Positions 1-37,455 of a stretch of 64,000 nucleotides of DNA are shown one piece after another. The notes beneath the pieces are model-generated. The model ran no database searches, had not been told where the DNA came from, and saw only the letters and a program-made list of their open reading frames with translations. The stretch covers positions 36,078 through 100,077 of the IMG/VR virus record IMGVR_UViG_3300045988_062714. One strand, written 5' to 3'. A program made the position numbers and the translations under genes. Every line of letters starts with the position of its first letter. Positions within the stretch are counted from its first letter, which is position 1. The DNA comes from a virus.

Positions 1-2
1 AG

Positions 3-888
3 CGTTCTGGGCTTCCAGAATCCTATTTAGCGGCTATATGTGCAGACTTCTAGGAAAGACTTGGCAGATTTCCCCACCTTGATGAAATTAAGGGAGTAGA
101 TTCTTCAAATTATTTGACAGAAGAGCTAAATATTAAACGTGGGATTACGAAGGAATAGTAGATTTATAGGCTTACTGGGAAAAATGATTTACAATCTTCA
201 TAGGTATGGATAAATGATAACTTTAGAGACCTAGAAGTGGAGTTTTCTCCATTCTTTGGCGATATTAAGGTATATATTACTCATAGACCTATTACTCAAG
301 AAATCTCTACTCCTGTAAGTCATTCTAAAATAAGCGATACGCTAGTTGTAGAGGAGATTGTAAGTAAATTGCGGGACGTATATGGACTACCAGTAGAATC
401 TGTTATAACAGAGGATTTAAATGAATATAAAGAATCTCCAATTTTTTCGGAAGGTGGGATAACTTATGTAAATGCAGATGCTGTTACCCTAGATACCCCA
501 GTAATAGAGCTAATTCCTCTGTTAATTACTTCACTCCACGGTACAGAACTTTACGATAAGCTAATTAAAGATAACGAAAAAGAATTTTCTAAAGAATTAA
601 GAAATAGAATAATAGATAAAAGCGAAAAATTATAGTTTCTTCCAACCAACGTATAGTATGAGTTAATGTATAATATGAAGCGTGTATTAGACTCTATTCT
701 AATGGGGGAATCTAGTATTAGAGATATTAATGACGATATATTATTCAACAGTACTTTGAGGTCACTTGCTAGAATAGTTAACTCTAAAATCGATGTTTCT
801 AATTCTAATATACTAAGTCTGGATTTGGAAGAAAAGCACAAATAGTTAATGGAAGAAGGGAAGGTAACTGAATACTGTCATGTCTGAA
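3..888 (+). CDS. Late-module protein, N-terminally truncated by the window. Frame 3 is open only if TAG is sense. In-frame TAG at 51, 156, 159, 201 and 633; real stop TGA at 886-888.
   Basis: Frame 3 from base 3 to 888 has no TAA or TGA but five TAG codons. The stop overlaps the ATG of the next gene (ATGTCTGA). Confidence 0.5.
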
Positions 889-3800
889 TGTATATATAAA
901 TTTAAAGACCACGAATTTAGTAGTAAAAAGGAGTATGAAAACTTTCTACTACAAAAAGGAGACGAACTATACGAAATCTACGGGGATTTGGTATTTAATG
1001 CTTTAGATAACGTAATAACTTAGGAAGCTTTAAAGAAAGTTAAAGCAGAGGCTCAAAAGCATGTTAAAGCTTATGCTGAGGCTAAGAAATTATACTAGGA
1101 TGGAGAAGATAATCTAGAATTTAAACGCCCTTATATTGGTGTAACGGAATTTCTCGCGGATCTTACTAATTCTAAAGACTAGCTTTTAATGCCTTCTTTT
1201 AGAGAATTTGAATATTGGAGAAGACGTATTAAGGACTGGAAAGATCCCACTAAAGGATTTAATAATGACGAAATAGAACTATTCGGGAAGAATGTAACCG
1301 TTACCGATAATGTTAGCGAAGACTAGCTGAAGGAGTATTTAGATAACTTTGATAATAATTCAGAAACTACCAGTTAGACTTTAGGATTAATCAAACAAAT
1401 GAAGGATAAGTGGAAAGCACAGGGCGAATTAGGTACAGAGATCCATAGTATCTTAGAAATGCTTTTCAGAACTACAAAGGCTGGATTACTTATCACCCAG
1501 AGTGACAAAGCCATTAAGAGCTATATAAATTTACAGTATAAAGACAAAAAATTAAAGCAGGATACTATAAATAGTATAATTAAGTATGGAAAAAAGTTAC
1601 ACGAAGATTTAATTAATACATATGGACAGAATCTAACTTTCTTTCCTGAGTTTAAAGTAGTTACCAAGTTGGGATATGAGATCGAAGGGAAAGGAGATAC
1701 CATCTTAGGAAAGATAGACCTATTGGTAGTTGATGGGGATGGGTATGCTCATGTTATTGACTATAAGACTTCCCCTAAAGATTCTTTTGATTCTGCGAAA
1801 CAGAGAGCTTTTTGGTATCAGATGGGATTATATCATAGAATGATTGAGAATGCCGGAATTAGAGTTAACAGTCCATCACCTAAAGTTATTGTTGCTCCTA
1901 TAAAAATGCATAATTTCAGGTAGGAGGGAGACACTTGGGTATTTGATACTATTTCAGCTAGGTTAGGAGAGTCTACTTTGGAAGATATAACTACTAGAGC
2001 AACATTAAATGAGGTTGCTGCTAATATTGATGAGTTTATTCCTCCTACCCCAGTTATTGATTTAACTCCCAAGGAAATTGTAACTAATGTTTCGTAGGTA
2101 ATGGAGTATTCGTTTCCTAGTATAAATATGAGTAAGACTTGGGGAGACGAAGAAATAAAATCTATGATGGAAGGAAATATTGAGTAGGACCCAGAGTCTA
2201 AGAAATGGGTATTTAAAACTGAAAACTCTAAGATTCCATATACTGCTAACACTTAGGAAGAACTTTTTGAAAAAGTTAAAAAGTTCTATTAGGAAACTCT
2301 CCCAAAAAAACGCAGAGATATGGTAGCCTCTGTGGAAATGGCCTTGAAGAAAGGCATAAAAGAAAATACTAGTCTAGTTCCTTTACCAAAATAGGGAAGT
2401 ATTAATGTTAAACAAGGAGCTTCCGCAGAATGGTTCTAGAATCTAATGGGTAAGTACTGTAGGAACTATTATGAAATTATCGAAAATGAAGCAATAAAGG
2501 CTTATGGGGTTATTCTACTAAGAAACAAGCTCAACGGGTAGATTGATATATTGAAAATTACTACTGACAATCTAGATTATTCTCATAAGTTTAATAAATC
2601 TAGTAGAAGATAGTTATTAACTGGGGCATTTGAAGTAGATAGTGTATAGGCTAGGAAACCTGGTTCATTGGCTATGAAAGCTACCAATGGAAACATACAC
2701 TTGATGGAGACAATGGCAATCCTAAACTGTTTGCCTGAAATAACCTCTAAAGAAGGAATTATTGGAAATATACTTGTAGCTAATCCCCATTCTCTACAGG
2801 GTACAGCGGCATCAAACGAGGAATTAGTCTACAATTTCGGAGAGTTAGTATCCCACATTGATGGATTCTAGAATAATATTAAGAACATTAAATTTGCGAA
2901 TAAAGTAGAATTGGCTAAAAATAAGCTTAGAGAAGTATTAGAACTTGGTGCTAGCACACACTGGGAAGAGGATAAGTATAAGTTTGTAGGAAAGTATAAG
3001 GATTTATATACATAGTTGGATGAAGCAGTCTCTACTAATGACAGAAGAGATATTCTTAGAAAATTGGAGGCAATTAGGAAAAAATTAGAAGAGCCTAATG
3101 GAGGTTTAAGAACTGAGTAGATAACATCGTTAGACACTTATAGTGAGGAGGGAAATGAGTAGAGAACTTTATATAATCATATAATGTTAGCTATTGCTGA
3201 AATATAGGGAGTGCAGTTTAGACAGCAGACTAAAGACAACGAGAAGTATCTTGAGAGCATGAATATATTTAATAACGGGGTTAAATCTCTGATGTTAGAT
3301 AATCCAGGAAATCTAGATAATGCTACTCTAAATAAATTAACCTCTCTTATTACTGAAGCTTATTAGAACACTCGTGAGGATATGATGAGGGAGACTCCAA
3401 TTATTAGAGAGCTAGTAGAGGAACTAAAGAAAAGCAAAGGGTTTGGAAAGCTATCAGAAATGACTGTTGGCAATTAGGCAAGCTTGTATAGAAATATGAT
3501 AGAGTATAAAGATGGCGATATTCTATTTAAGAATCCCTGGAGCAACAAATTCTCTGGTACTGAACAGGAAAAGAAATTTCTTAAATATGCTCTTACTAAG
3601 ATAAATTAGGATAGGTTTGGAACTGATGAATTGGATGAAATGATAACTACAGAAGATGTTAGATTCTTTAGAGTTCCATTGGCTGTAGGAAGTTTATCCT
3701 CACAAGCTTCTTAGTTAGGAAGTATTGCTGAAGCATTCAAGAAGAGATTAGTTAGTAGATTGAGTCCAAAAAGATGGTGGGAAGAAACACAGAAATAGTT

Positions 3801-5589
3801 TCTAGGAGTATTCTCAGATGTCTAGAATCCCTCTTCTGAAGGAGAATTATTTCAGATGAATAATATGTTTGATGCTGGAAAGAATACAGAGTAGAGACTA
3901 GAGAAGATTGCAGAGAAGGGATATGATTATTTTGAGAATAATCTAGAAACTTTGTTATTAAAGCATATATTTGCTTACTCTACTAAGAAAAACGTTGATT
4001 TAATTATGCCAATGGCTAAAGCATCAATGATCCATGTAATCACTTAGGGATAGTTAACTAATAAAAAGTTTACTAATACTGCCAATTATATCACAGATTA
4101 TATAAAATCTCATATTAAAAACGAATCTTTAATTCCTGAAAATTAGTAGAATTTTAATGCTATTGTTAGCAGAATTAAAAATGCGGCATCATTCTTGGTG
4201 CTGGGATTTTCTCCTATTTAGTATGGCTACTAGATGATATAGGCTCTTTGGACCGATATAAGGCTAATGTATTAGGGAAGAGGAGATGAAAACACTCCTT
4301 TCACCTTTGAGAATTTTGCATTTGCTTTTAAAGAAGTTTATAGAGAACTATTTACTCTTGGAGGAAAGCCTACTAAATGTAGCCTATTAAATGATATGTT
4401 TGCTATTAACGATAGAGATATGAATACTTATGCAGAACAGACTAAATCAGATAGGTATGGAATATTCAATATGTCTAATATTGCTTTTCACTGCACCAGC
4501 AGACCAGATTATTACAGTAGAATGTCTATATTTGTCACTTAGTTAAAATAGGATGGCAGTTATGATGCCTATGAAAAAGTTGGAAACAAACTAGTATATG
4601 ATTGGAAAAAGGATAAACGCTTTGAAGCATATGCTAATGGAAGGACTGATGACCCCAAATATAACGAACAAAAAGGGTTATATTACGCTATAGCTGAGTA
4701 GTTAGAAATAGAACATGCTAAAAATGCTGACGGTAGTTTATTCTAGATCGGACAACCTTTACCTAAATCTCATACAAACCAGCAGATTGAGAGTTTCAAA
4801 TCGTTAGCTGATGATATTTATGGTTACTATGCCCACGAAAAAAAGGCAATGATTCATTCCTATACTCTCGGAGCCTTGTGGATGCAAATGAGAACTTTCT
4901 GGTCTGGTAAGAAAAACCAGTATTTGGGAGGATAGGGTATCAAATTAAAAGGACGCTATGCTCAGTAGAAGGATGCTAATGGTAATTTGTTATACCTCAC
5001 CGAAGAAAATGGCAGAATGATACCAACTACAGAAAATACTGGAGTTCCAGTAGTAAAGTGGGAGGGAGAATGGTAGGAAGGAATTATGCTAACCTTATCA
5101 TAGTTAATATCTGGAACCTTTCAAGGAGATGGATTAAAGCATACTTTCGAAGATATGTGGTATAATGAGGATGAGAAGCTTAGAAATCTCTATAGAGCCA
5201 ATTTACGACAAATCTAGTATGATTTACTAATGTTCTTTATTGTTGGTTCTCTTGTCACTGGAACATTAGCCGATTGGGATGATGAAAACATGAAGAAAGC
5301 TAAGGATTCTAGAGATATAGACGATGCAGCTATAGCAGCTGCTGCTCATATGGCATGCAAGATGGTAAGTTCGTCTTTTTTAGACCTTAACTTTATTGAA
5401 TCTATTGGAGGACCACTAGTTTATTGGCAACCAATGTCATTTAGTTATTTTTCTAGAAGAGCCGAAGATATATATAATATAGCATTTGGGGATACTTCTT
5501 TTACTGATGCTCTTATTAGAATGTCTTCATTAACAAATAATACTAAGATATTTTGGAATACTTTACTTCCTGAAAGGGAGTAGGAATAA
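877..5589 (+). CDS. Giant late protein of about 1570 aa, probably virion-associated, with about 45 in-frame TAG codons read as sense. Contains a PD-(D/E)XK-like segment (IDLLVVDGDGYAHVIDYKTS).
   Basis: I read frame 1 codon by codon from 877 to 5589. It has zero TAA or TGA and many TAG, and terminates at TAA 5587-5589 just before a hairpin terminator. It joins track ORFs 1399-1923, 2668-2871 and 5230-5583 in one frame. Confidence 0.6.
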
Positions 5590-5595: not shown

Positions 5596-5640
5596 AGGGA
5601 GAAACATAGACTTTATTGTCTACGCTTCTCCCTTTATTAT
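5596..5640. terminator. Bidirectional rho-independent terminator at the junction of the convergent + and - modules.
   Basis: 8-bp perfect stem AGGGAGAA/TTCTCCCT with an inner stem TAGAC/GTCTA. It is flanked by AAAAAAT upstream and TTTATTATTT downstream, between the stops of both modules. Confidence 0.55.
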
Positions 5641-6159
5641 TTACCAAGTATTGTAATCAGTTATGTTCTTACTCTCCTTACATACATTACATTTAACAGA
5701 TTTACCTATACCTATTCCACTATGTGTAAATGTTACTGAACATCCACACGCCTTTATTCCCTTATGTAGTTCATAATGTTGTTTTTGAAATTCGGCATAT
5801 GCATTTGCCTCCTTCTCATTCAAACTATAAGAGATAGCACTAGGTTTAAATATATTAGATATACAAGCAGTACCATCAGTACTAATAACAAATCCAGAGG
5901 AAGTTCCTTCTTCCTTTTTGTCCTCGTTAATCTGCCGAATCCTTTCTTTGCAAATATGGATAATCTTCTCGTAATCCATTATTCTAGCATCCTCTTTAGA
6001 CTTACCAGGTTCTTCCTTAGTTCTCAGTATCCTCTTTACAATATCCGCATCCCATGGATTCAAATTATATTCTCTCCAAATATCCCAAGGTTGTATTTTA
6101 TGCTTGCTGTAATTAGAATTTCCTACATTATAGCTTCTAATGTCTTCATTCGTCTCCAT
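5641..6159 (-). CDS. Hypothetical protein with a C-terminal Cys-rich (zinc-ribbon-like) tail.
   Basis: Intact ORF. ATG at 6159; the track M at 6162 is a TTG. C-terminal CGCS...CNVCK. Confidence 0.45.
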   Translation of the reverse strand: METNEDIRSYNVGNSNYSKHKIQPWDIWREYNLNPWDADIVKRILRTKEEPGKSKEDARIMDYEKIIHICKERIRQINEDKKEEGTSSGFVISTDGTACISNIFKPSAISYSLNEKEANAYAEFQKQHYELHKGIKACGCSVTFTHSGIGIGKSVKCNVCKESKNITDYNTW

Positions 6160-6347
6160 CAACTATTTCGATTTTATATTCAAGTTCCATAGAATCTCTT
6201 AAAGTGTCTAAATCATCTACGAACATAATTACGTCTCCAGAATCCACAAAGTCTCTTAAGACCTCTATAAAATCAAACTCATCGAGTTCGTCATCACATT
6301 CCTTAGCATAGGCTACTCCTGTTCTGCTCAATAATACTCTATACATA

Positions 6348-6608
6348 TTAATTACCGTTTATAATTGATATAATAGTGCCCAAAGAAACAGCACCTACTG
6401 TTCTCTTAACTTCTTCATCTTGCTCGTTATAATATATCAAAACTGGAACATTTCGTATACCTCTTGCATTCGCAAGTTCTTCCTCTTCGTCTACATCATG
6501 CTTGACAATTTCTATTCCAGTAAGCTGTTCTAACGTCCTGTCTAGTACTTTGCATGGTCCACACCATGATGCTCCAAACTTTTCAATTCTTGTAATCATT
6601 TTAATCAA
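6348..6608 (-). CDS. trx: Thioredoxin/glutaredoxin-like redoxin (NrdC/NrdH-type hydrogen donor for the RNR).
   Basis: FGASWCGPCK active-site motif (WCGPC), 86 aa. Confidence 0.75.
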   Translation of the reverse strand: MIKMITRIEKFGASWCGPCKVLDRTLEQLTGIEIVKHDVDEEEELANARGIRNVPVLIYYNEQDEEVKRTVGAVSLGTIISIINGN

Positions 6609-7492
6609 ATAGGCTTAGTTCTTGACTTATCTGTACTCTGTTATTTACGTACTTAATTGGTTCCGTTATTTCTCCAGAAATAAGTTCAGAGTTAGGATTT
6701 TCTGGTATTCTTTTAGCCAGATTATGATCTATAGTAGCATAACAATATTTACATCCCATCTTACAAGTATCGTATTCTCCTATTCCGTAGGTCTGAACGC
6801 TACAAGTACATCCACTAGTAATAGAAGCTTTAGTCGGCTTTATGTTAAGCCCAAATATCTTAGGACTCATACATCCTTCAACATATACCCCAGGATATTC
6901 CTTTCCTAATCTACATATCTGTAAATGTAGATTATTCTCGGATATAGCAATAACTCCCATTCTCATAGTAATCCAGTCCTTTTCCTCTTCAGTGAAAGGA
7001 ATTATTTCTGGCATATTAGCTAATGTGTGGGAATATGGAGTAATAAAACTAAATATACATCTACTTACATACTTGGACAATTCTTTAGCCATTTTCTTGA
7101 AAGAATCTACTAACCATTCGCAAGATATTTTGTTAGTCTTAAGTAAAGGGTCAAACCTCCACAAAACATTTTCTTTGCCTACTATCTTACTCAACTCTTT
7201 TAAAGTCTTTATACTTTCATCTACCGATGGAACATTTGGCTCTATGTCAGTTCCATATGGAGTAATAGTATATACACTTATACTTGGAATTGATTTCTTG
7301 AATATATGGTAATATTTTAGAATAGTCCTTAGAACAGAAGGCTATACAGTCTACATCCTTTAAGGAGTATGCTGTAGTAACCTTAGTTCTAGGATTCTGG
7401 GAATAAATAAAGTCCTTATGTAACAATTTATCTACCAGCCAATCAGTATAACAAGCTACTATGTCAGTTCTTAAGCTGATGTTTAGAATCAT
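6601..7492 (-). CDS. DUF1848-like radical-SAM-related protein with a C-terminal CxxxCxxC cluster. It is split over two frames, by a frameshift, an overlapping-gene arrangement or an authentic indel.
   Basis: Track ORF 7247-7492 has an ATG start. Track ORF 6601-7194 starts at TTG, and its frame stays open upstream to 7341, overlapping the first ORF in a +1 frame. The C terminus carries TCKMGCKYC. The combined length of about 295 aa fits a single protein. Confidence 0.4.
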
Positions 7493-7772
7493 TTATTTTT
7501 TCATTATCCTCGCTTAAAATAACTAATCTGTCTGCTAGTAAATTAGCTACCTGGTGGCGTACAGAGTCTGTAGTCCAATATCTCATTTGCGTTTCGATAT
7601 GTCTACGTACAAAAGTATCCATATCGAAGTCGTCAAAAGTTTTCTTTAACATAAGCTCAGCTTGAGACTGCACTGCCTCTTTAAGCCAAGCTCTTATATC
7701 ATCCTTGGTGATGCCCAATTCATTATGAATGTAATTCTTGAACATCATCCATTTATCATTCTTTTCTGACAT
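7464..7772 (-). CDS. Hypothetical protein.
   Basis: Intact 102-aa ORF with an ATG start, tightly packed with its neighbours. Confidence 0.4.
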   Translation of the reverse strand: MSEKNDKWMMFKNYIHNELGITKDDIRAWLKEAVQSQAELMLKKTFDDFDMDTFVRRHIETQMRYWTTDSVRHQVANLLADRLVILSEDNEKINDSKHQLKN

Positions 7773-8428
7773 TAGATATGAAAGTCTATTACTGAAATTT
7801 CAACATCATCTCCTACACTGTCTAGATACTCTTTAAACTCCTTGTTCCAAACATCTTCGTCTTTGTCATTTGTAGTCATAGCCCACCAACCCATACTAGC
7901 AGACTCATGCCAATCTCCGTCCTCTGTTACAAAACAGAATGGAATTCTATCTTTTTCCAACATAGCATCCCAGTCTACTTCTTCTTTGGTAGCAAAGATG
8001 GCATTGAGGGGTTCTCCGTCTTCTCCTTTTTCCTTAAGAAGTAACCATGCTCCCCATCTACCTCCTTCACAATACCAATCCCACTTAGAGTCAGGATTAT
8101 ATGTAGACATCAAGTTCTCTTCGTCATCAATTTCATATCCCCAGTTCTTAGCTTCTTCCCAGGCATCTTCATATGAGATAAACAACCCTTTCTCTATGAT
8201 TTTATTAGCTCTTTCAAGCTGTTCCTTTTCCCATTCGGTGGTAGGATTCTTATACTTATCTGCTAGCTTAATGGCATACTCATAGTTATCAGCGTGTCTG
8301 GTTTTAACCTCATCAATGGCTTCATCCTTTGTATATCTAACATATTGTTCTACCTCCATGTTTTCATCATAGGGTTCTAACAATGTTTCAACATTACTTC
8401 CGAATACTAGTCCTACAAAATGGCTCAT
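7772..8428 (-). CDS. Hypothetical acidic protein.
   Basis: 218-aa ORF. Its start overlaps the neighbour stop (ATGA). Confidence 0.45.
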   Translation of the reverse strand: MSHFVGLVFGSNVETLLEPYDENMEVEQYVRYTKDEAIDEVKTRHADNYEYAIKLADKYKNPTTEWEKEQLERANKIIEKGLFISYEDAWEEAKNWGYEIDDEENLMSTYNPDSKWDWYCEGGRWGAWLLLKEKGEDGEPLNAIFATKEEVDWDAMLEKDRIPFCFVTEDGDWHESASMGWWAMTTNDKDEDVWNKEFKEYLDSVGDDVEISVIDFHI

Positions 8429-8910
8429 ACTATATATTTTTTAACAATTTCTGAAATCATCTTACCGTCTGCTTGAGGAAATTCTGATTTCAAATATTTA
8501 ATCGCATTTCCCATTTCTTTCTTTGGAATTTGGAAACTAACCATATCTATTGAATTTTCTTCATTATAGAAATCTTCAATAAAGCCTTTTCCCTCACACC
8601 ATATTTGTAATGCAGAATGTATGTCTGGCTCATTTACAGGCTCAGGAAGCAACTTTTTTAGTACTTCCAATTCATCCCTATATTCAGTTGCCAAGTCCTC
8701 TCTACCAGCCTCTATAAAGCTAGAAATACTGTCCTCTAATTTCTTACACATTTTAGAAATAAGCTGTATCTCAGCTGCTTCATCATAAGGTTTAGCATTT
8801 TTAGCAGTTTGTAGAATCTGAATTTCTGCCTTCAGATTCTTATATGCACGAAGTTCTACTTGATTTTTAGACTTCATTGCTTTAGCTATACATTCGTTTA
8901 TATTTATCAT
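8425..8910 (-). CDS. Hypothetical protein.
   Basis: 161-aa ORF with a 4-nt start/stop overlap. Confidence 0.45.
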   Translation of the reverse strand: MININECIAKAMKSKNQVELRAYKNLKAEIQILQTAKNAKPYDEAAEIQLISKMCKKLEDSISSFIEAGREDLATEYRDELEVLKKLLPEPVNEPDIHSALQIWCEGKGFIEDFYNEENSIDMVSFQIPKKEMGNAIKYLKSEFPQADGKMISEIVKKYIV

Positions 8911-9245
8911 TTTAAATTATTTAATCCTTCTTCTAAAACTTCATTTAACCAAGTGCCTCCATTGTAAAATTGGACAATGTACTTGTAAGTTCCATCTCCA
9001 TTACTTCTAACGTCAACCAAATAGGAAGTGTCTTCTGGATATTGAGTATCACCACATTTATACAGTTCTCCGTTTAACACTTTATAAGTATCATCCACAT
9101 CCATTAAGGTTTCAGCATATGTATCTCCTTCATAAGCAATCTCATAACCATATTTCTTACAAAGATACTCACAATATTCTTCTACTGTAAGTCCTTTTGT
9201 ATTAATTTTAGTTAAAGTTCCTGTATGTAATTCAACACAACTCAT
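8907..9245 (-). CDS. Hypothetical protein.
   Basis: 112-aa ORF. Confidence 0.4.
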   Translation of the reverse strand: MSCVELHTGTLTKINTKGLTVEEYCEYLCKKYGYEIAYEGDTYAETLMDVDDTYKVLNGELYKCGDTQYPEDTSYLVDVRSNGDGTYKYIVQFYNGGTWLNEVLEEGLNNLK

Positions 9246-9320
9246 ATTTCTAGAGTATAATTAGAAATCCAATCTCCACAACATTCACAATGTCCTAAGT
9301 CTTTATATTCTCCTAGATGC

Positions 9321-9476
9321 TCAATAAGAGACATCCTGAAGAGTAGCTATATCGGTTTCCCTATCTAGCATGGCTCGTATAGATACTTTTATCTCTTCCG
9401 GAGTCATGTATGCAGTCTCTTTTCCATCAACGGTAAGGGATGTGCAAATACATCCGTCAGTATATTCTATTTTCAT
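9321..9476 (-). CDS. Small ORF of 51 aa, absent from the >=60-aa track.
   Basis: ATG (9476) through TGA in an otherwise empty 240-nt gap. Sequence MKIEYTDGCICTSLTVDGKE... Confidence 0.3.
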   Translation of the reverse strand: MKIEYTDGCICTSLTVDGKETAYMTPEEIKVSIRAMLDRETDIATLQDVSY

Positions 9477-9486
9477 AATTAATTTA

Positions 9487-9690
9487 TTACCTATTATAAT
9501 CCAAAGTCTTAACCAAATACTTGATTGCTTCTAACTGTCCATATGTTAAGGATATCAGTTTGTCATTTAAACAAATATCCCAACCTTCTCCATTTGCCCA
9601 TTCTGTTACTTCTATAAAGTCTGAATCCTTCGCCAGATGGTCATACTTTTTTAATTCGTCGCTTACAGCTTTTCTTTCATGAATTTCCAT
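9487..9690 (-). CDS. Hypothetical protein.
   Basis: 67-aa ORF. Confidence 0.4.
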   Translation of the reverse strand: MEIHERKAVSDELKKYDHLAKDSDFIEVTEWANGEGWDICLNDKLISLTYGQLEAIKYLVKTLDYNR

Positions 9691-9691
9691 A

Positions 9692-9814
9692 TCAAATAAT
9701 TATTTTAAAATATACAGAAGTCTTCCAGGTTCTCCAACCTAGAAATTTAGTAGGAACCCAGTTAGGTTTTCCTATTAAATCTCTAAGTTCTAATGGAGTC
9801 AAATCAAATTCCAT
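9692..9814 (-). CDS. Small ORF of 40 aa (MEFDLTPLELRDLIGKPNWVP...).
   Basis: ATG at 9814. Its stop lies 1 nt upstream of the next gene's ATG (tight packing). Confidence 0.3.
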   Translation of the reverse strand: MEFDLTPLELRDLIGKPNWVPTKFLGWRTWKTSVYFKIII

Positions 9815-9824
9815 CCCTTGAACA

Positions 9825-10427
9825 TCATCTGGAGACAGTCCTATCCAAACTTTCATTCTTCTGAGATTCTATTTTTTCTTTAACTTCCCTATATGATATT
9901 GGGGTAAAATTATTATTATCAACTCCGACATCATACTGAGTCGGTAATAATACCCTAAGTCTAGAAATATCCAAACCATCAGCTTGTGGTCCGGAGTGAA
10001 CATGGCCAAACAGTTGCCATACTCCTCTATATGACCCTCCATAACACAGAAATGGATAATGGTTTAAGTAGATAGAATTATCCTCAATTTCTATCTGCAG
10101 CTGAGGTACTACCATATCAAAATATAACATATATCCCTGTCTAAGATTCTTTCTGTCATGATTGCCTATAATGAGGTTTATATGACCATTTAGACGAGGG
10201 ATGATGCTATTCCATACACTACTTCCACCAAAGGCAAAATCTCCCAGATGGAAGACCGTATCGTCCTTAGAAACCACCTTATTCCAATTTTCTATCAGAA
10301 CTTCGTTCATTTCTTCTACATTTTGAAAAGGTCTATTACAAAACCTAATTATATTGGCGTGTCCGAAATGAGTATCTGAGGTAAAAAATGTATGGTCTGG
10401 ACTATACTTAATCTTCTTTTCGCTCAT
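9825..10427 (-). CDS. Calcineurin-like metallophosphoesterase.
   Basis: Motifs HLGDFAFGG, IIGNHDR and GHVH. Confidence 0.6.
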   Translation of the reverse strand: MSEKKIKYSPDHTFFTSDTHFGHANIIRFCNRPFQNVEEMNEVLIENWNKVVSKDDTVFHLGDFAFGGSSVWNSIIPRLNGHINLIIGNHDRKNLRQGYMLYFDMVVPQLQIEIEDNSIYLNHYPFLCYGGSYRGVWQLFGHVHSGPQADGLDISRLRVLLPTQYDVGVDNNNFTPISYREVKEKIESQKNESLDRTVSR

Positions 10428-11106
10428 TCTCTTCTAGTTTTTCAGCAGTTATATTATACCCAGTTTTCATCCAACAATAAAACTTAGATGAAACCATTTT
10501 TCTAAATTCAAAGTAAAACATCTCTTCTCTAGCTAATATAGGAAATAGGGTATGCGTTACTGCCAAGATTGAAACATTAAATTTCTTATGCAAGTTCCTG
10601 TACATATTAGACATTCCTACTTGGCGAGATAGATCGAATCCCTTGTCAACTTCATCAAACACTAATAGAGTTTTCTCATCCCAATGTTCCTTGTTTTCTT
10701 CTAACCATTTACTTAACATCGCTAGACCTCTCTGACCTGTAGACATACGTTTGGTTTGGAATCCTCCGTTCTCAAGTAAGGCTTCTGCTGAAGCACTATT
10801 ATTAAGACTCGTTGGGTCATCAAATTCGGCACTAATGAAATAAAACCTAGTAAAGTCAGTACTTATTTCAACCTTATTTTTGAATCCTCTAATATCACAA
10901 TATCCAAGCTTAGTCTGATACACAGCGTTTGGGTCATCTTTGCTGTTATCACATTGATAATCTCTTATAACATTAACAAGAGTTGATTTTCCACACCCGT
11001 TATCTCCAGCAATCAGAATCTCTGGATGTTTACTAAAATCGAAATTAAATTCATCACCTTGCTTGAGGGTTCGGAAATCCTCAAGCATTTTTATATTAAG
11101 GTACAT
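10408..11106 (-). CDS. P-loop ATPase (AAA/ABC-like).
   Basis: Walker A IAGDNGCGKSTL and a Walker-B-like LLVFDEVD. Confidence 0.5.
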   Translation of the reverse strand: MYLNIKMLEDFRTLKQGDEFNFDFSKHPEILIAGDNGCGKSTLVNVIRDYQCDNSKDDPNAVYQTKLGYCDIRGFKNKVEISTDFTRFYFISAEFDDPTSLNNSASAEALLENGGFQTKRMSTGQRGLAMLSKWLEENKEHWDEKTLLVFDEVDKGFDLSRQVGMSNMYRNLHKKFNVSILAVTHTLFPILAREEMFYFEFRKMVSSKFYCWMKTGYNITAEKLEENERKED

Positions 11107-11646
11107 ATTAAGAAATTAAATCTTTAAGTTTAGAGATATACTTACTATTATCCTCAGCTACTTGCTGGTTAAACTCAATTTGAGTTTGGATAGAAGCAAT
11201 CTCATTTTGTTTAACTTTAATGTCTTCAGCTATAGCTGCATTTAGAGCCATAGCCTGGTCATAAGAGGTCTTGAAAATATTCTTTACTTCTGCTAACTGT
11301 TCAGCAAATGATTTTATTTGTTTTTTGCTACCGAAAATACTTGAAATGTTCATAATATTAATTTTTACTTATTTATAAAATTGGTTTCTACTTCCCATTC
11401 GAAAAAGCTAGAGTCTAAGTTCTCATAACTTTTTCTTGGACTATTTGCGTAAATGCCTTTTAACTGTTCAGTCATCATATTTATCATTTCAGCATAGTCC
11501 ATATATCTTCTTATTTTGGCAGCTTTACGAGTCCATTTAGAATTTCTTCCTACAGTATATACCGCTCCATACCTAAGACATCTTCCACATACTCTTGGAT
11601 ATAGGAAGGTATACTTAAGAGCCTTCTTTATTTTTCTGGTATCCTT

Positions 11647-12099
11647 TTATTCTCCATGATACGTGAAGCCATAAGCTGCTCCATATAAATCCCACAAAGT
11701 TTCTTCCTCCAAGTCTCTAGAACTCCACTCTAAATCTGGAAGAGAATATTTTACTATAGCAAAATACAAGTCTACAAATTCCTCCTCAGCATAGTCAAAT
11801 TCATAACACCCAGCTGGTGCACCCCATTCAGCATCTGATTCCCTAACATACTTCTCGTCTATTATTCCTAGTTTTAATAACTCTTTAGTAAATTTTTCTG
11901 GTATCCAATAGTCTGACTGAAAATCTACTCCAACTTCCTTGATAAAATCAAAACCTAGGAGTTTAGTAGTTTCTTTGTATGCTTTGGATATTTCATCTGC
12001 CGAATGATTAGCAACTATATGATAGTCCGTTGTACAGGCATGACCGTCCCCTCCTGGGTCTCCAAGCGTAAATCCAATATTATACTTCATAATTAACAA
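11647..12099 (-). CDS. Hypothetical protein.
   Basis: 150-aa ORF. Confidence 0.4.
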   Translation of the reverse strand: MLIMKYNIGFTLGDPGGDGHACTTDYHIVANHSADEISKAYKETTKLLGFDFIKEVGVDFQSDYWIPEKFTKELLKLGIIDEKYVRESDAEWGAPAGCYEFDYAEEEFVDLYFAIVKYSLPDLEWSSRDLEEETLWDLYGAAYGFTYHGE

Positions 12100-12779
12100 G
12101 TTCCATATTCTGTTTCTTTATAAAACTCAATCTTTTGCCCATATAGTTTCTGTAATTCCTGATTTATTTCAGTAAACACACTATAAGGCATCTTTTTATT
12201 CTGTCTAGCAAAATAGGCAGGATGATACACTTCTATAATTTTGGGACTATTTACAATATATTTCTTAAATGATGATGCTTGATTACCAAATAAGACATAT
12301 ATTATACCTCCATCTCTAGAACTTAGATTGTGAATTAATTTGGCAGTAAAGGATCTCCACATATCAAAGTGTGAGCCAACTCTACCAATTTCACAAGTGA
12401 AAGCAGTGTTAATCATTAAAATACCTTGCGTTGCCCATGATTCTAGAGTATTATCAAATTCTATCCTATTGTGTGGAATTTCGTAATTTATTGCAGCTTC
12501 TTTAACTATCTGTAATGAAGGCGATAGTTTATCTTCTGGGGTGTCCTTTGAGTTGCCAAACAATATTCCAGTAGCCACACCTTGTTGTGGGTACGGGTCT
12601 TGTCCTAAAAATACAACTTTACAATCTTTAAGAGGACACGCTTGAAACGCTCTAAATATGTTTTGAGAAGCAGGACACAGGGTAGTCTTGTCCAGCTTTC
12701 CTATCCATGAGACTACCCTATATAGTTCCTGTGTATCAATTACTCCCATCCAATCTCCAAAATATTCACTAGCTTTCAT
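12093..12779 (-). CDS. ung: Uracil-DNA glycosylase.
   Basis: Water-activating loop motif VVFLGQDPY. Length 228 aa. Confidence 0.55.
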   Translation of the reverse strand: MKASEYFGDWMGVIDTQELYRVVSWIGKLDKTTLCPASQNIFRAFQACPLKDCKVVFLGQDPYPQQGVATGILFGNSKDTPEDKLSPSLQIVKEAAINYEIPHNRIEFDNTLESWATQGILMINTAFTCEIGRVGSHFDMWRSFTAKLIHNLSSRDGGIIYVLFGNQASSFKKYIVNSPKIIEVYHPAYFARQNKKMPYSVFTEINQELQKLYGQKIEFYKETEYGTC

Positions 12780-13759
12780 TCACACCATCCCTTTTTTCTA
12801 AATTCTGCATGTAGAGGTTCTGCCAATTCTCTAGCCTGTGGATGTGCACTTTCTGCATCACGCAATTTAAAGAATCCGTCCCACTGTGTAAGAGTACCAG
12901 TCATAATTAATTCAGTCTTAAGACTATTAGGTAGTACAGCTCTTGCTTGCTGAGGTTTCCAACCCTGATTTAGTAATTCCAAATATAATTGTTCGGATAT
13001 TTGTAAATTAGCTATAAAATTCCTTTCTGGAGTAATCTCCCAAGGTTTAAACCAGGGGTTCCCTTTTCCAGTTAAATGATAGTAGTATTCTCCAATTAAA
13101 TTTCCATACTCATCATGATTAATGATAGTTCCTTTAACTTCTTGGAGAGCTAGGCTGTCTGCCCAACATGGAATAATAAAGGTAAGCTCATTACCAAATT
13201 TGTCCTTGGAATAATTGCAATAACGGGTACTCTCCTGAGCAAAACTAAACACTCTATGCCTTACAAATTCGTGGCTTACTCCTCTATCACATACAAATCG
13301 AACCGTAATTCTTTTCTCATGTTCCTTACCAGGATTACAGATATATTCCAAATCCTCAAGCCAACCATTTTCTACTAATACTCTATAATTAGTAGTAACA
13401 AATCCGTTCCAAGTTCCCTTTTCGGCTTCTCCAGTACTATTAGCTACAGAATAAGGATTGCTGCAATACTTAAAATACTGTTGTCTAGAAGACATCGTTA
13501 GAAATAGATATACGGTACCATGCTCTAACATAGCTCCATGTCCAGACTTTACCATTCTCTCAACAAATTTTGCAGCAGAATCTAGAGTAATCTTGTCCTC
13601 TGATTTGTAACAGGTTCTTCCAGCTATTTCAATCTGTCTATATACAGTGTCAATAAGCTCTTGCCTAGCCATTTTAGGTCCTATTTCCATATCAGATGGA
13701 ATGATTATGTTTCTAGGTTTCTGTTCTAAGATTTCAAAATATGGTTTAATTAGCTTCAT
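12776..13759 (-). CDS. thyX: Flavin-dependent thymidylate synthase ThyX.
   Basis: ThyX signature RHRVFSFAQESTRY (RHRxxSxxQxSxRY). Confidence 0.75.
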   Translation of the reverse strand: MKLIKPYFEILEQKPRNIIIPSDMEIGPKMARQELIDTVYRQIEIAGRTCYKSEDKITLDSAAKFVERMVKSGHGAMLEHGTVYLFLTMSSRQQYFKYCSNPYSVANSTGEAEKGTWNGFVTTNYRVLVENGWLEDLEYICNPGKEHEKRITVRFVCDRGVSHEFVRHRVFSFAQESTRYCNYSKDKFGNELTFIIPCWADSLALQEVKGTIINHDEYGNLIGEYYYHLTGKGNPWFKPWEITPERNFIANLQISEQLYLELLNQGWKPQQARAVLPNSLKTELIMTGTLTQWDGFFKLRDAESAHPQARELAEPLHAEFRKKGWCE

Positions 13760-13918
13760 TGTAATCCTTTGTTAGTTCATCATTAGTGTATTCATCTGCT
13801 TCATAGTCACTCATTGCCTGGTCATACCATGTCCAATTATCAACACCTGCCATTTCTAGACAACGCAACTTCCATCTATCCCTTAATAACTCTGCTAACT
13901 CGTCTTTTCTAATTAACT

Positions 13919-14296
13919 TCATTTCCATAGTCCCAGTTCTATACCTAATGCTTTATCCATGAAGCAATACGTTGTTCCGTCCTTTAATGTCCTGGTATTC
14001 GGCTTTATGTGTAATGCTAAAGGACAATCTTTATTAATTCCTGTAATATCTCCAGTTCTCCAAGGTTCTTTCTCAGATTTTTCTGCGTCGATGCCTATTA
14101 TGAATAAGGCTTCATCCTTATACTTTGCACATTCCTTGCAAGCATGATCAGAATAACCTACAGTTTTTCCATGTAGACTCTTTACCTCTTTTGCAGCTTC
14201 TTCAGAAAGAAGGGAATTCATTATGATTCCCTCCTCTGCTATATTCCCACAAACTGGGCATATATATTTAACTATAGAAGCTTTGAACTTATCCAT
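13919..14296 (-). CDS. Zinc-ribbon protein.
   Basis: CPVCG...CKEC pairs. Confidence 0.4.
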   Translation of the reverse strand: MDKFKASIVKYICPVCGNIAEEGIIMNSLLSEEAAKEVKSLHGKTVGYSDHACKECAKYKDEALFIIGIDAEKSEKEPWRTGDITGINKDCPLALHIKPNTRTLKDGTTYCFMDKALGIELGLWK

Positions 14297-14708
14297 GTTT
14301 ACACCTTTTACAAGGTTTGTAACCTTTCTTCCTTGCTTCAGAAAGCAGTATTTCTTCCACTTTCGGATTTCGAGCTTTCAAAGATGCGCAACCTCTATCC
14401 GTATGATAAACACTACCAGTTTTTGTTATATAAACGTACTCTTCATCATCTATACATCCACCAGTAGGATTTCCGTCTTCATCACAATAAGCACCACTAT
14501 TAGCTAATATAAGTCTGCCATTATCAGCTTCTATTACTTCGTCACCATTTTCTAAATACATATCCTCTACCTTTATTAAAGTTAAACTTTTGATTGAATG
14601 ATAATCATGTCTAATTTCCTGCTCTGCTTCATACTGATTTTCTGCAGAAGTCCAGACATTTTGGTCCATACCGTTAGTATGTTCTATATGATATATAAAC
14701 TTCTTCAT
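14289..14708 (-). CDS. Hypothetical protein with a C-terminal Cys/His cluster.
   Basis: 139-aa ORF. C-terminal HTDRGC...CKRCKHG. Confidence 0.4.
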   Translation of the reverse strand: MKKFIYHIEHTNGMDQNVWTSAENQYEAEQEIRHDYHSIKSLTLIKVEDMYLENGDEVIEADNGRLILANSGAYCDEDGNPTGGCIDDEEYVYITKTGSVYHTDRGCASLKARNPKVEEILLSEARKKGYKPCKRCKHG

Positions 14709-14855
14709 TTAATCCTCCTTAATAAGCTCTACTAAAGTCAGATTTCTAAAAGTCTCTCTGAGAGATTTTCTTGCTTCTTCTTCACTTGGAGCTTCTATTG
14801 TAATCGTTTCAGCACATCTAGTTTTAAATTCTATATAGTATGTATAGGTTTTCAT
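14709..14855 (-). CDS. Small ORF of 48 aa (MKTYTYYIEFKTRCAE...).
   Basis: ATG at 14855. Its TAA abuts the ATG of the downstream gene. Confidence 0.3.
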   Translation of the reverse strand: MKTYTYYIEFKTRCAETITIEAPSEEEARKSLRETFRNLTLVELIKED

Positions 14856-14863
14856 CTTAATAT

Positions 14864-15487
14864 TTATTTCTGGTTATAGTATAAAAGTGTAGGATTATTG
14901 TCATGTATATCTATTGGGTCTAACTGATACAAGGCTAGCTTCTGAGAAAACTGTTGCCTGTCAAACCCGTTAGAAATAAGGTGATATCCATTTACAGTCG
15001 GAATGATGTGTCTAATTCTCTCTCCTTCCGAACCTCTACACTCTTTGATTAGAGAAATTATTTTCTGTTGATACCCATCATCTTTAGAATCTATATCAAC
15101 TATCCATAATTTCTTATAGTTTGTACTTCTGCTAGCACCAGTAGCTCTGTCATATACAGCAATACCTTGTCTAGTATTTTTATTCTTTATTAAGTCAGTA
15201 AACTGCTTAATAGATTCGCAAGCTATATCGAAAGTATTTCTTGGATTTATCCAGAAATAAGCACGAGCGTTATTACTATTACATAGGTCTTTTATGTAAG
15301 GTTCTTGTCTTAGAAATTCTTCCTTGGTAAAGAAATAGAAACTTCTAATAGTTCTAGCGCCAGAAGTATATGATGAGAGTTCTACTCCATCCTTCTTACG
15401 TTGAATTATTTGTACGAAATAGAAATCATCCTTGTCTATTAATTCATCAAACAATTTAGATAAATATTCAAAATTATCTACTATCAT
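14864..15487 (-). CDS. Hypothetical protein.
   Basis: 207-aa ORF. Confidence 0.4.
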   Translation of the reverse strand: MIVDNFEYLSKLFDELIDKDDFYFVQIIQRKKDGVELSSYTSGARTIRSFYFFTKEEFLRQEPYIKDLCNSNNARAYFWINPRNTFDIACESIKQFTDLIKNKNTRQGIAVYDRATGASRSTNYKKLWIVDIDSKDDGYQQKIISLIKECRGSEGERIRHIIPTVNGYHLISNGFDRQQFSQKLALYQLDPIDIHDNNPTLLYYNQK

Positions 15488-15954
15488 TAAAACATTCCTC
15501 CAAATATTCCGTTAAACAATCTATCATTAAAATACTCTGGTACACATTTAGTTATAATAAGTTGTCTAAATGCATCTCCATGTTTTCTTCTTAAATAATC
15601 CTCAAGAGAACATTTTGCCATCAATTCATTATCTTTGTTCTTAACCTTTATTTCTTTATCGTAAAGGATTTCGTTAAATAAAACTACATTGTAGTTAATC
15701 CTATAATTCATTTCTAAGCTCTTCTCTTATTTGTTTTTTGATAAGCTGTCTAGCTTTTCTCTTATTTACACAATCTATCATGATTTCCCCAAATCTTTTG
15801 AAGTATATTTCTCCTCCCCATCCTTTCCATCCTTGAGAGCCATAAGCACGTCTTTTTCTTCGTCTCTCTTTTTTACCTTCATTGTCTAAGTATGGGGAAG
15901 GAAACCTATTTTTTGGGTTATGTGCTACTGGATGATGCTCATCAAATGTTCTGC

Positions 15955-16740
15955 TCATATAAGCTTCTCTATATAGTCTCTCCCTTCTCCAGTAAAGATT
16001 GGAATCTCATCGTCAATATACCAATAACCTCTGAGAGTTTGGTTCATAGTCTGATGATACTTCTTGATACAACAGCTTCCTCTTCTAAACTTAGTAGGAT
16101 AATCATTCCAATTAATTCCCTTCTCTTGGAAAAGTAGTTCTTGAATCTGATTAGTATTTAATCCTTCTAACTGCTTATGAGAAAAGTAAGCTTGCCCAAC
16201 AGATTGAATACTATTTCGTGTAGCGTCTTGCTGTCTCCATAATATACAATTAGTTACCTCTTCCTTGGGGATATTAAAGCATCTTGCATCAAATACCGCA
16301 CCTGATTTAATAGCACGTATGTAGGATTTAGCCAGATTTTCGTCTCCTAATTCACCTTTCCAAGAAAGTTCGTTAACTTGCACTTGGAATTGTCTATTAA
16401 AGATAAAGGTGGCCATAGATGCAGCTACACTACAGATTTTTTGTACTTCGTAATCAAACCAAGCATCTGTAGTAAGTTTTTGGTAGTCTATCAGAACTAG
16501 CGTAATTTCATCAGATTGTGTATATCCCAAGACACATCCCTGAATGTTTTCACACAGATATTTCATAGTTTCCTGCATGGCTTTGGACATACACTCATCA
16601 AAGGGCTTAACAAAACCCTTTGTGAATGTGTGAAATGCTTTTCCATCTAATCGGATGATTACAGGAGTTCTTCTCATAAGTGATGTCTTAGAACGCGCTT
16701 CATAATAAAGCTTCATTCTATCTCCAAATTCGTCTTTCAT
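15955..16740 (-). CDS. Thg1-like protein (tRNA-His guanylyltransferase family 3'-5' nucleotidyltransferase), a likely tRNA 5'-end repair enzyme.
   Basis: RLDGKAFHTF...KPFDE...LGYTQSDEITLVL matches the Thg1/TLP catalytic motifs (RxDGRxFHxF, FExPxD, YxQSDE). Confidence 0.6.
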   Translation of the reverse strand: MKDEFGDRMKLYYEARSKTSLMRRTPVIIRLDGKAFHTFTKGFVKPFDECMSKAMQETMKYLCENIQGCVLGYTQSDEITLVLIDYQKLTTDAWFDYEVQKICSVAASMATFIFNRQFQVQVNELSWKGELGDENLAKSYIRAIKSGAVFDARCFNIPKEEVTNCILWRQQDATRNSIQSVGQAYFSHKQLEGLNTNQIQELLFQEKGINWNDYPTKFRRGSCCIKKYHQTMNQTLRGYWYIDDEIPIFTGEGRDYIEKLI

Positions 16741-17255
16741 TTCTCCTTTCTTATATTAATGTTTCCGTAGTATAAACTACCACTAACTATATACTTGAAG
16801 TCTTTTCCTTCCTTTATGAAAGTTACCCAATAGTCTATATCCCAGCCATTAGTTTCTATGTTAGTATCAGTCCATCCTAACTCCTCTAACACTTCTTTAA
16901 CCAATGCAAACGAGATACAGCCTGCACTAAACTCTTCTGGTTCAGATTCCATAATGTGAAACAGTTGGTCTGAGATATTCCTAAGGTCTTGGGTGATTAT
17001 TTCACCTCTATTAACTAGTTTTGCATTGTCCCAGACAACCTCGTCTTCGTGGTAAATTTCTCTGGTAGCAGACCCATTGTTCTCTTCTGGAGCTAAGTCG
17101 TCAGTACTTTCATAAAGTTGTTCACTATCGTAGCAATCTACCTCTCCGTCCTTTACTTTTTCTATAGCTTCCTCTAATGTTTCGGCTTCTACTTCATAGT
17201 AATACCTATTCCATGTACGAGATAGTACATCCTCGTAGAGATTAAAACTGTTCAT
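16737..17255 (-). CDS. Hypothetical protein.
   Basis: 172-aa ORF. Confidence 0.4.
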   Translation of the reverse strand: MNSFNLYEDVLSRTWNRYYYEVEAETLEEAIEKVKDGEVDCYDSEQLYESTDDLAPEENNGSATREIYHEDEVVWDNAKLVNRGEIITQDLRNISDQLFHIMESEPEEFSAGCISFALVKEVLEELGWTDTNIETNGWDIDYWVTFIKEGKDFKYIVSGSLYYGNINIRKEK

Positions 17256-37453: not shown

Positions 37454-37455
37454 TT

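What the first reader, a model, noticed from the sequence alone, without database searches (positions are those of the whole stretch)
1..5589. Amber (TAG) stop-codon reassignment confined to the + strand late module
Two + strand genes, 3-888 and 877-5589, are continuous only if TAG is translated. In frame 1 across about 4.7 kb I counted about 45 TAG codons and not one TAA or TGA. The second gene ends cleanly at TAA just before a hairpin terminator. Under the standard code the region collapses into four unrelated short ORFs. This is the signature of code-15-like recoding (TAG to Gln) seen in some crAss-like and Lak-like phages of Bacteroidota. The recoded protein of about 1570 aa also carries a PD-(D/E)XK-like segment (IDLLVVDGDGYAHVIDYK), suggesting a nuclease domain inside a giant virion protein.
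Basis: seen in the sequence. Interest (0 to 1): 0.85.

Follow-up and report, generated by a model that had tools for sequence, protein, structure and literature searches.

The report
Amber-recoded late genes, crAss-like phage
Two genes at the left end of this gut-phage fragment really do read the stop codon TAG as glutamine, but this is the well-documented code switch of large crAss-like phages, so the finding is correct and ordinary.

Summary
The + strand frame 880-5589 has 45 in-frame TAG, no TAA or TGA, and ends at TAA before a strong hairpin. Frame 3-887 has 7 TAG. Chance of no TAA/TGA is about 4e-44.

TAG means glutamine:
- Standard-code orthologs have Gln at the conserved TAG columns.
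- In a 93%-identical relative, 14 of 15 TAG changes are TAG<->CAG/CAA.
- Codon differences are 250 synonymous to 45 non-synonymous.

The 58 kb minus-strand replication module is 97% coding under the standard code, with one possible exception.

Gene B (1569 aa) has a Pfam-supported PD-(D/E)XK nuclease domain with invariant catalytic residues. It belongs to the crAss "transcription block" of giant proteins.

The phage falls in the Zeta crAss-like group, subgroup zeta_4. That lineage is already published as TAG->Gln recoded (Ivanova 2014, Yutin 2021). The same recoding is proteomically proven in other crAss-like phages. A near-identical protein (four or more residues differ) is already in public databases, translated with TAG=Q. 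Novelty: already known.

One side observation is less ordinary. The closest complete relatives carry a single suppressor tRNA about 30 kb beyond the window. Its anticodon is UUA (ochre type), not CUA. It sits directly behind a RAGATH-14 RNA.

The parts
3..887 (+). Gene A: the 3' part (294 codons) of a 311-codon gene cut by the window edge. It has 7 in-frame TAG in the window and ends at TGA 885-887. Function unknown.
   Evidence: Searches give the counts. The full gene, with 8 TAG, is in L001. Orthologs in 8 relatives have 0-11 TAG and no TAA or TGA. No Pfam or PHROG hit.
880..5589 (+). Gene B: 1569 codons with 45 in-frame TAG read as Gln, stop TAA at 5587-5589. It is a large crAss-like 'transcription block' protein with an N-terminal PD-(D/E)XK nuclease domain.
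   Evidence: TAG is the major Gln codon: 45 TAG against 11 CAA and 19 CAG.
1405..1920 (+). PD-(D/E)XK nuclease domain of gene B (aa 176-347).
   Evidence: Pfam PF12705 PDDEXK_1, E = 4.9e-13, 50 bits against a cut-off of 22. PHROG 1218 'exonuclease', E = 2.2e-6. D280, D294, Y295, K296, Q314 and Y318 are invariant in 31 homologs.
2440..5586 (+). C-terminal about 1050 aa of gene B. It is mostly helical, has no solved structural relative, and is conserved across crAss-like phages.
5596..5633 (.). Hairpin between the convergent gene B (+) and gene 5641-6162 (-), with T/A runs on both sides. Likely a bidirectional intrinsic terminator. It is also the boundary between recoded and standard-code DNA.
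   Evidence: -18.8 kcal/mol, z = -5.06. GC skew flips sign here.
5641..64000 (-). Standard-code replication and nucleotide-metabolism module. It holds 111 ORFs and is 96.8% coding under code 11. Stops are TAA 68, TGA 38, TAG 5.
   Evidence: Pfam: PolA 22601-24790, NrdD 37456-39627, DNA ligase 31979-33178, DnaB-like 47964-49058, Toprim primase 44942-45961, helicase 49918-51195, NAPRTase 55850-57400. Thy1, UDG, thioredoxin and YqeY come from the gene table.
44192..44736 (-). Possible single exception to strand confinement. This resolvase-like ORF has only one canonical start that keeps the whole domain: ATG 44736, which is followed by TAG as codon 4.
   Evidence: ATG AAA AAG TAG ACT.... PHROG 244 matches aa 67-180 (E = 4.4e-10). 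The first code-11 start (TTG 44476) would cut into that domain. Unresolved.

Best explanation
The window comes from a large (about 185-190 kb) crAss-like phage of the human gut, Zeta group, zeta_4 lineage. Its + strand 'transcription block' genes are written in a code where TAG is glutamine. This includes gene A, gene B, and the 2997-aa and 2780-aa giants just upstream of the window. The convergent minus-strand replication module is written so that it can be read with the host's standard code.

Shown here:
- The ORFs are intact only if TAG is sense.
- TAG behaves as a Gln codon in evolution and is the major Gln codon of these genes.
- The early module needs no read-through.
- Gene B carries an intact PD-(D/E)XK nuclease domain.

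Inferred from relatives and from the literature:
- A phage tRNA gene in a 25-tRNA block that starts about 200 bp beyond the window's right end supplies a suppressor.
- That suppressor is made from the standard-code module.
- Its accumulation lets the TAG-laden late genes be translated, which delays them relative to replication genes.
- Gene B is a late-made, probably virion-packaged partner of the phage RNA polymerase.
For: Intact ORFs: 45+7 in-frame TAG and no TAA/TGA, P about 4e-44.

TAG = Gln.

Purifying selection: 250 synonymous against 45 non-synonymous differences.

Spread in the family: 42 of 68 orthologs are TAG-recoded and none is TGA- or TAA-recoded.

Upstream gene: the 2997-aa gene has 102 TAG and no TAA/TGA.

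Early module: 96.8% coding in code 11.

Public gene calls: they already give a near-identical 1569-aa protein, P0001, with 842 member sequences and contigs up to 183 kb.

Clade:
- crAss_MUZ domain next to the standard-code ortholog.
- IMG/VR contigs of 185-192 kb.

Literature:
- Late-gene-restricted recoding and a PDDEXK domain in transcription-block proteins (PMC7886860).
- Proteomic proof of TAG=Gln in crAss-like phages (PMC9523058).
- Late-gene regulation model (10.1101/2021.08.26.457843).
Against: - No tRNA lies in the window or within 10 kb to its left.
- In the closest relatives the only suppressor found has anticodon UUA, cognate for TAA rather than TAG. The decoding step is therefore not straightforward.
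- No release-factor homolog was seen by GGQ motif.
- Expression timing and virion location were not tested.
- The RNA-polymerase identity of the upstream 2997-aa gene rests only on a DYDID motif.
- One minus-strand ORF may need TAG read-through.
Confidence: 0.92

Rival explanations
1. TAG is translated, but as an amino acid other than glutamine, for example Glu, Lys, Tyr or pyrrolysine. ARAGORN labels CUA tRNAs 'Pyl'.
For: Lys and Glu are the next commonest residues opposite TAG (13% and 12%). ARAGORN prints 'tRNA-Pyl(cta)' for the CUA alleles.
Against: - Gln scores 104 against 67 for Glu and 57 for Lys.
- The residue profile opposite TAG mirrors the profile opposite CAA/CAG.
- 14 of 15 recent TAG changes are to or from CAG/CAA.
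- Family-invariant Gln columns are TAG here.
- The 'Pyl' label is only ARAGORN's name for any CUA anticodon.
Confidence: 0.03
2. The region is non-functional, or holds several short standard-code genes, and the long TAG-only frame is an accident or an assembly artefact.
For: Under code 11 only short ORFs exist.
Against: - P about 4e-44.
- The same gene is seen in many independent assemblies.
- There is a strong synonymous excess.
- Full-length standard-code orthologs exist.
- The Pfam domain spans TAG codons.
Confidence: 0.01
3. TAG is read as Gln, but not by a dedicated phage amber suppressor. Decoding would depend on a host factor or on loss of RF1 activity, with near-cognate or wobble reading. 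The phage UUA tRNA would be incidental or would serve another purpose.
For: - The closest relatives lack a CUA tRNA at the conserved suppressor locus.
- One close relative (L073) has a decayed copy, and two have a 6-nt anticodon loop.
- Yutin 2021 and Borges 2021 both note recoded phages without a detectable suppressor.
Against: - The suppressor locus is conserved and scores as a good tRNA (57 bits).
- Sister genomes with the same TAG load carry CUA.
- A UUA anticodon can read UAG by U:G wobble, as classical E. coli ochre suppressors do (established knowledge).
Confidence: 0.1

Closest known systems
Zeta-group crAss-like phages, subgroup zeta_4 (Yutin et al. 2021, PMC7886860), including 'phage_1' of Ivanova et al. 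2014
   Same: - Genome size is about 181-192 kb.
- Translation is listed as 'TAG|q'.
- Recoding is concentrated in late genes.
- The tRNA block has 21-28 tRNAs in the same order.
- PolA, primase, DnaB, Thy1, UDG and RNR are present.
- The giant transcription-block proteins include one with a PDDEXK domain.
   Different: All 18 zeta_4 genomes in that table list a CTA suppressor. The contigs that share this window's gene B have TTA at that locus. Signature structural genes (MCP, portal, TerL) lie outside the window and were not checked.
Genetic code 15 in crAss-like phages, validated by metaproteomics (Peters et al. 2022, PMC9523058), and the late-gene recoding model (Borges et al., 10.1101/2021.08.26.457843)
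   Same: - TAG->Gln applies in late genes.
- The replication module is compatible with the standard code.
- The suppressor tRNA is encoded in the standard-code part.
- GC content is low and TAG is rare as a true stop (5 of 111 here).
   Different: No proteomic data exist for this phage. No RF2 or aminoacyl-tRNA synthetase gene was seen. The suppressor anticodon differs in the nearest relatives.
E. coli ochre suppressor supB (tRNA-Gln with anticodon UUA)
   Same: The UUA anticodon would insert Gln and read both UAA and UAG by wobble. This is recalled textbook knowledge, not tested here.
   Different: Here UAG is a high-frequency sense codon (28 per 1000) while UAA stays the main terminator. A classical ochre suppressor would not give that selectivity. 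The tRNA is not a recent copy of the phage's own tRNA-Gln(UUG), to which it is 58% identical.
PD-(D/E)XK nucleases of Pfam PF12705 (Cas4/AddB/RecB-type)
   Same: The HMM match is above threshold. The D...D-x-K and Q-x-x-x-Y motifs are invariant.
   Different: The domain is embedded at aa 176-347 of a 1569-aa protein. The remaining about 1200 aa have no known fold relative.

Membership tests
Code-15-type (TAG->Gln) recoded phage genes | Long conserved ORFs interrupted only by TAG, never by TAA or TGA | tested here: met
   There are 45 and 7 TAG and no TAA/TGA, with P about 4e-44. The upstream 2997-aa gene has 102 TAG.
Code-15-type (TAG->Gln) recoded phage genes | TAG positions correspond to Gln in homologs that use the standard code | tested here: met
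   (Gln enriched 5.8-fold and the best BLOSUM fit). (14 of 15 TAG changes are TAG<->CAG/CAA).
Code-15-type (TAG->Gln) recoded phage genes | Recoding limited to late genes, with replication genes readable in the standard code | tested here: met
   The minus-strand module is 96.8% coding in code 11. One possible exception is at 44192-44736. 'Late' timing itself is inferred, not measured.
Code-15-type (TAG->Gln) recoded phage genes | Phage-encoded suppressor tRNA with anticodon CUA | tested here: not met
   There is no tRNA in the window. At the conserved suppressor locus of the closest relatives the anticodon is UUA. Those contigs hold no second CUA copy of this backbone. Sister genomes do have CUA. 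About 50 kb of the nearest contig was not scanned.
Code-15-type (TAG->Gln) recoded phage genes | Gln found at TAG positions in peptides | not testable with these tools
   This was done for other crAss-like phages (PMC9523058).
Crassvirales, Zeta group (zeta_4) | Genome of 145-192 kb with a large tRNA block in the zeta_4 order | tested here: met
   Shown on relatives, not on the window itself. Contigs are 183-194 kb. The tRNA order matches Yutin's Supplementary Data 1.
Crassvirales, Zeta group (zeta_4) | Complex replication module: DNA polymerase A or B, DnaG primase, DnaB, Thy1, UDG, RNR | tested here: met
   Pfam hits.
Crassvirales, Zeta group (zeta_4) | Transcription block of giant proteins, one of them with the RNAP DxDxD motif | tested here: inconclusive
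   Giant genes of 2780 and 2997 aa lie upstream. A DYDID string is present. There is no Pfam or PDB sequence support.
Crassvirales, Zeta group (zeta_4) | Signature structural genes (MCP, portal, TerL, IHF, genes 74/75) | not tested
   They lie outside the window and the fetched flanks. The only support is a crAss_MUZ Pfam domain beside the ortholog in L007.
PD-(D/E)XK nuclease superfamily (PF12705) | HMM match above the curated threshold | tested here: met
   50 bits against a cut-off of 22, E = 4.9e-13. 33 of 35 homologs carry PF12705.
PD-(D/E)XK nuclease superfamily (PF12705) | Catalytic D...(D/E)-x-K, plus Q-x-x-x-Y, conserved | tested here: met
   D280, D294, K296, Q314 and Y318 are invariant in 31 sequences of 31-65% identity.
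PD-(D/E)XK nuclease superfamily (PF12705) | Nuclease activity | not testable with these tools
   Needs biochemistry.

The most novel reading that the evidence does not exclude
In the sub-lineage that carries this window's gene B, the very frequent TAG codons are decoded by an ochre-type suppressor tRNA (anticodon UUA) rather than an amber one. That tRNA is transcribed directly behind a RAGATH-14 RNA.

Near-identical genomes carry either the UUA or the CUA allele with the same TAG load, and TAA stays the main terminator. This would imply one of two things: a selective wobble-decoding mechanism, or an RF2-based discrimination mechanism. It would also give the orphan RAGATH-14 motif a possible role in making or timing the code-switch tRNA.
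Probability: 0.35. Interest if true: 0.6.

Novelty: already known. Interest (0 to 1): 0.25.

Why it matters
For annotation, standard-code gene callers shatter about 5.6 kb of this window, and about 100 kb of the genome, into meaningless fragments. Code 15 must be used for the + strand block.

Biologically it is one more instance of the published late-gene code switch of crAss-like phages. It opens no new question by itself.

The part that could matter is outside the given coordinates. This lineage may really run a TAG=Gln code with a UUA-anticodon tRNA while keeping TAA as its main stop. If so, it is a natural test case for how suppression is kept codon-specific. It would also link the orphan RAGATH-14 RNA to suppressor tRNA expression.

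Tried and rejected
1. 'Back-up stop' idea. I asked whether the five TAG-terminated early genes are protected by a nearby TAA or TGA. The distances (1, 5, 8, 11, 138 codons) do not differ from those after TAA or TGA stops (median 7). Rejected.
2. Internal TAGs in the minus-strand ORF 61386-62201. Relatives show variable stops at the junction, so these are two genes.
3. Release-factor genes. No GGQ-motif ORF was found in the window or in any fetched locus.
4. RNA-polymerase identity of the upstream 2997-aa protein. No Pfam hit and no PDB sequence hit.
6. Suppressor as a recent copy of the phage tRNA-Gln(UUG). Only 58% identical, so not supported.
7. Link between suppressor allele and TAG load or gene-B type. 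None was found. UUA occurs with both B and B', and both alleles go with 40-47 TAG.
8. A scan with P0002 found nothing in IMG/VR.
It was redone with the representative.
10. The GenBank phage collection holds only two unannotated fragments of this phage.
Full report
**Observation**

Counting stop codons frame by frame gives the following.
- The + strand frame that contains 868-5589 has 45 TAG. It has no TAA or TGA until TAA at 5587-5589.
- The frame that contains 3-887 has 7 TAG. It has no TAA or TGA until TGA at 885-887.

Base composition predicts about 97 TAA/TGA in 1569 codons, so P(none) is about 4e-44. The two other frames of the same stretch have 79 and 169.

Gene B starts at ATG 880, overlapping the stop of gene A as ATGTCTGA.

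Seven bases after the TAA there is a 16-bp hairpin at 5596-5633. It folds at -18.8 kcal/mol, z = -5.06, with T/A runs on both sides. It separates gene B from the convergent gene 5641-6162. GC skew changes sign at the same place.

Under the standard code the + strand gives only six ORFs of at least 50 aa, the longest 174 aa. These are pieces of one protein rather than unrelated genes.

**What TAG means**

A search with the TAG=Q translation returned 35 full-length homologs of about 1550-1620 aa. I fetched the DNA of eight of them.
- Two (L007, L011) have no in-frame stop at all.
- Six have 12-38 in-frame TAG.

Opposite the window's TAG codons, the two standard-code relatives have Gln in 22% of cases, against a 3.9% background. 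Gln is the best-scoring assignment: BLOSUM sum 104, against 67 for Glu and 57 for Lys. The residue profile matches the profile opposite the window's own CAA/CAG codons. Columns that are Gln in every one of 31 homologs (Q829, Q1118) are TAG in the window.

A relative with 93% nucleotide identity (L123) differs at 295 codons. Of these, 250 are synonymous if TAG = Gln. Of the 15 differences that involve TAG, 14 are TAG<->CAG or CAA.

Among 68 orthologs from IMG/VR, 42 have 12-55 in-frame TAG and 26 have none. None has in-frame TGA or TAA.

TAG is the commonest Gln codon of these genes. Usage per 1000 codons:

| Codon | + strand genes | Minus-strand genes |
|---|---|---|
| TAG | 27.9 | 0 |
| CAA | 7.0 | 15.8 |
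| CAG | 10.2 | 12.1 |

**Is it confined to the + strand?**

On the minus strand, 111 standard-code ORFs cover 96.8% of 5600-64000. Their stops are TAA 68, TGA 38 and TAG 5. In-frame TAGs in the TAA/TGA-delimited frames lie upstream of start codons or in alternative frames.

Two candidates were examined.
- **61386-62201.** This is two genes, because relatives have variable stops at the junction.
- **44192-44736.** This remains open. A resolvase-like domain (PHROG 244, aa 67-180) is kept whole only if translation starts at ATG 44736 and reads TAG as codon 4.

So the confinement claim holds for this window, with one possible exception.

The upstream + strand genes seen in an about 99%-identical contig are recoded too. 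A 2997-aa gene there has 102 TAG and no TAA or TGA.

**What the genes are**

Gene B matches Pfam PDDEXK_1 at aa 176-347 (E = 4.9e-13, 50 bits against a cut-off of 22). It also matches a PHROG exonuclease family. D280, D294-Y-K296 and Q314...Y318 are invariant across 31 homologs.

The remaining about 1050 aa gave a mostly helical AlphaFold model of moderate confidence (pLDDT 64.9). Its only significant relatives are large proteins of crAss-like phages. One is annotated 'putative RNA-polymerase subunit' and another 'PD-(D/E)XK endonuclease-like'. No solved structure resembles it.

Yutin et al. [quoted passage not shown] Virion packaging is an inference from other crAss-like phages and was not tested. 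Gene A has no recognisable family.

**Which phage**

The minus-strand module encodes PolA, an anaerobic RNR, DNA ligase, DnaB-like and SF2 helicases, a Toprim primase, Thy1, UDG and NAD-salvage enzymes.

Contigs carrying the same genes are 183-194 kb. A crAss_MUZ domain lies beside the standard-code ortholog.

Walking right from the window through IMG/VR relatives shows a block of about 25 tRNA genes. It starts about 200 bp beyond position 64000. [quoted passage not shown]

That order is the one listed for subgroup zeta_4 of the Zeta crAss-like phages in Yutin 2021 Supplementary Data 1. The subgroup includes 'phage_1' of Ivanova et al. 2014, and every member is marked 'TAG|q'.

TAG->Gln in crAss-like phages has been shown by metaproteomics. 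Late-gene restriction is the published pattern. The public protein collection already holds a near-identical protein translated with TAG=Q. It differs from the window's copy at four or more residues. The finding is therefore correct and already known.

**How it most likely works**

*Shown:* two coding dialects on two convergent strands, with TAG as a Gln codon in one of them.

*Inferred:* the standard-code module, which includes the tRNA block, is expressed first with host machinery. A phage suppressor tRNA then allows translation of the TAG-laden block. This is the model of Borges et al.

I found no release-factor gene.

**The odd detail, outside the given coordinates**

The suppressor is the first tRNA of the block. 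In 13 or more IMG/VR contigs its anticodon loop is CTCTAAA (CUA).

In 7 contigs it is CTTTAAA (UUA). These include all three contigs for which both loci are known and gene B matches the window's:
- 070909, which is 98.8% identical to the window over 14.9 kb;
- 058602;
- 074321.

An exact-pattern scan of independent metagenome assemblies found UUA in 7 stretches and CUA in 4, each allele on its own D-arm backbone. None of the UUA contigs has a second CUA copy of this backbone.

TAG load is the same with either allele: 40-47 TAG in the gene at this position. Other contigs show a 6-nt loop, a TTTAAAA loop or a decayed gene.

Yutin's table lists only CTA for zeta_4. A UUA anticodon is cognate for TAA and reads TAG only by wobble, yet TAA remains the main stop here. 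I cannot explain that. About 50 kb of the nearest contig was not scanned, so a second suppressor is not excluded.

In every relative checked, an Rfam RAGATH-14 RNA (154-183 bits, gathering score 149) lies about 25-55 nt upstream of this tRNA. No paper in the library mentions this RNA. The theta ribozymes described next to suppressor tRNAs are a different element, placed on the 3' side.

**Verdict**

- Novelty: already known.
- Interest is low for the finding itself. The suppressor allele and its RAGATH-14 neighbour are the only parts worth a follow-up.

Noticed in passing
Relatives, about 30 kb beyond window position 64000: L089 1068-1138 (UUA), L076 1160-1230 and L077 2357-2427 (CUA), L093/L101 142-211 (6-nt loop), L100 55-125 (loop TTTAAAA), L073 about 905-970 (decayed): The single suppressor tRNA of this phage lineage is polymorphic. 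The contigs that share the window's gene B have anticodon UUA (ochre type). Sister genomes with the same TAG load have CUA. Independent metagenome assemblies give 7 UUA and 4 CUA. Published zeta_4 tables list only CTA.
   Followed up: yes
L089 835-1041, L076 937-1130, L077 2110-2301, L073 671-877: An Rfam RAGATH-14 RNA (RF03145, function unknown) lies about 25-55 nt directly upstream of the suppressor tRNA in every relative checked. This includes the one whose tRNA has decayed.
   Followed up: partly
Window 1-6082, compared with L240 and about 25 other loci (L220-L256): Some genomes have an early module 92-100% identical to the window but carry a very divergent allele at gene B's position. That allele is 1543 aa, 27% identical over 1092 aa, with 40-47 TAG. 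Nucleotide homology breaks near window position 6082, next to the convergent terminator. This suggests whole-module exchange.
   Followed up: partly
Window 44192-44736 (-): This resolvase-like ORF (PHROG 244) has a NUMOD-like N-terminus. It appears to start ATG AAA AAG TAG. It is either a lone in-frame TAG on the standard-code strand or a non-canonical start.
   Followed up: partly
Window 6612-7770: An 1159-bp stretch is present in the window and in L001, L002 and L126. It is absent from the otherwise near-identical L003, L004, L124 and L125. It holds a DUF1848 gene and two small ORFs.
   Followed up: partly
Window 12776-13759 (-), compared with L003 20739-22859: The Thy1 thymidylate synthase gene is intact here. 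In relative L003 it is split by an insert that carries a 254-aa ORF, possibly an intron or homing-endonuclease insertion of the kind reported for Zeta phages.
   Followed up: no
Window 61782-62171 (-): Gene 61803-62171 ends with TAG, two sense codons, then TAG. It is in frame with the next gene (61386-61781). Amber suppression would therefore fuse the two products into a 255-aa protein.
   Followed up: partly
Window 55850-57400, 54657-55466, 59520-60536 (-): Auxiliary genes sit in the replication module. One is a NAPRTase/NAMPT-type NAD-salvage enzyme. Another is an OmpA-family outer-membrane beta-barrel protein. Relatives also carry NAD synthase (L010).
   Followed up: no
L001 83-9076 (about 0.05-9 kb left of the window): A 2997-aa gene has 102 in-frame TAG, which is 69% of its Gln codons. 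It contains a DYDID string that could be the RNAP DxDxD motif. There is no Pfam or PDB sequence support.
   Followed up: partly
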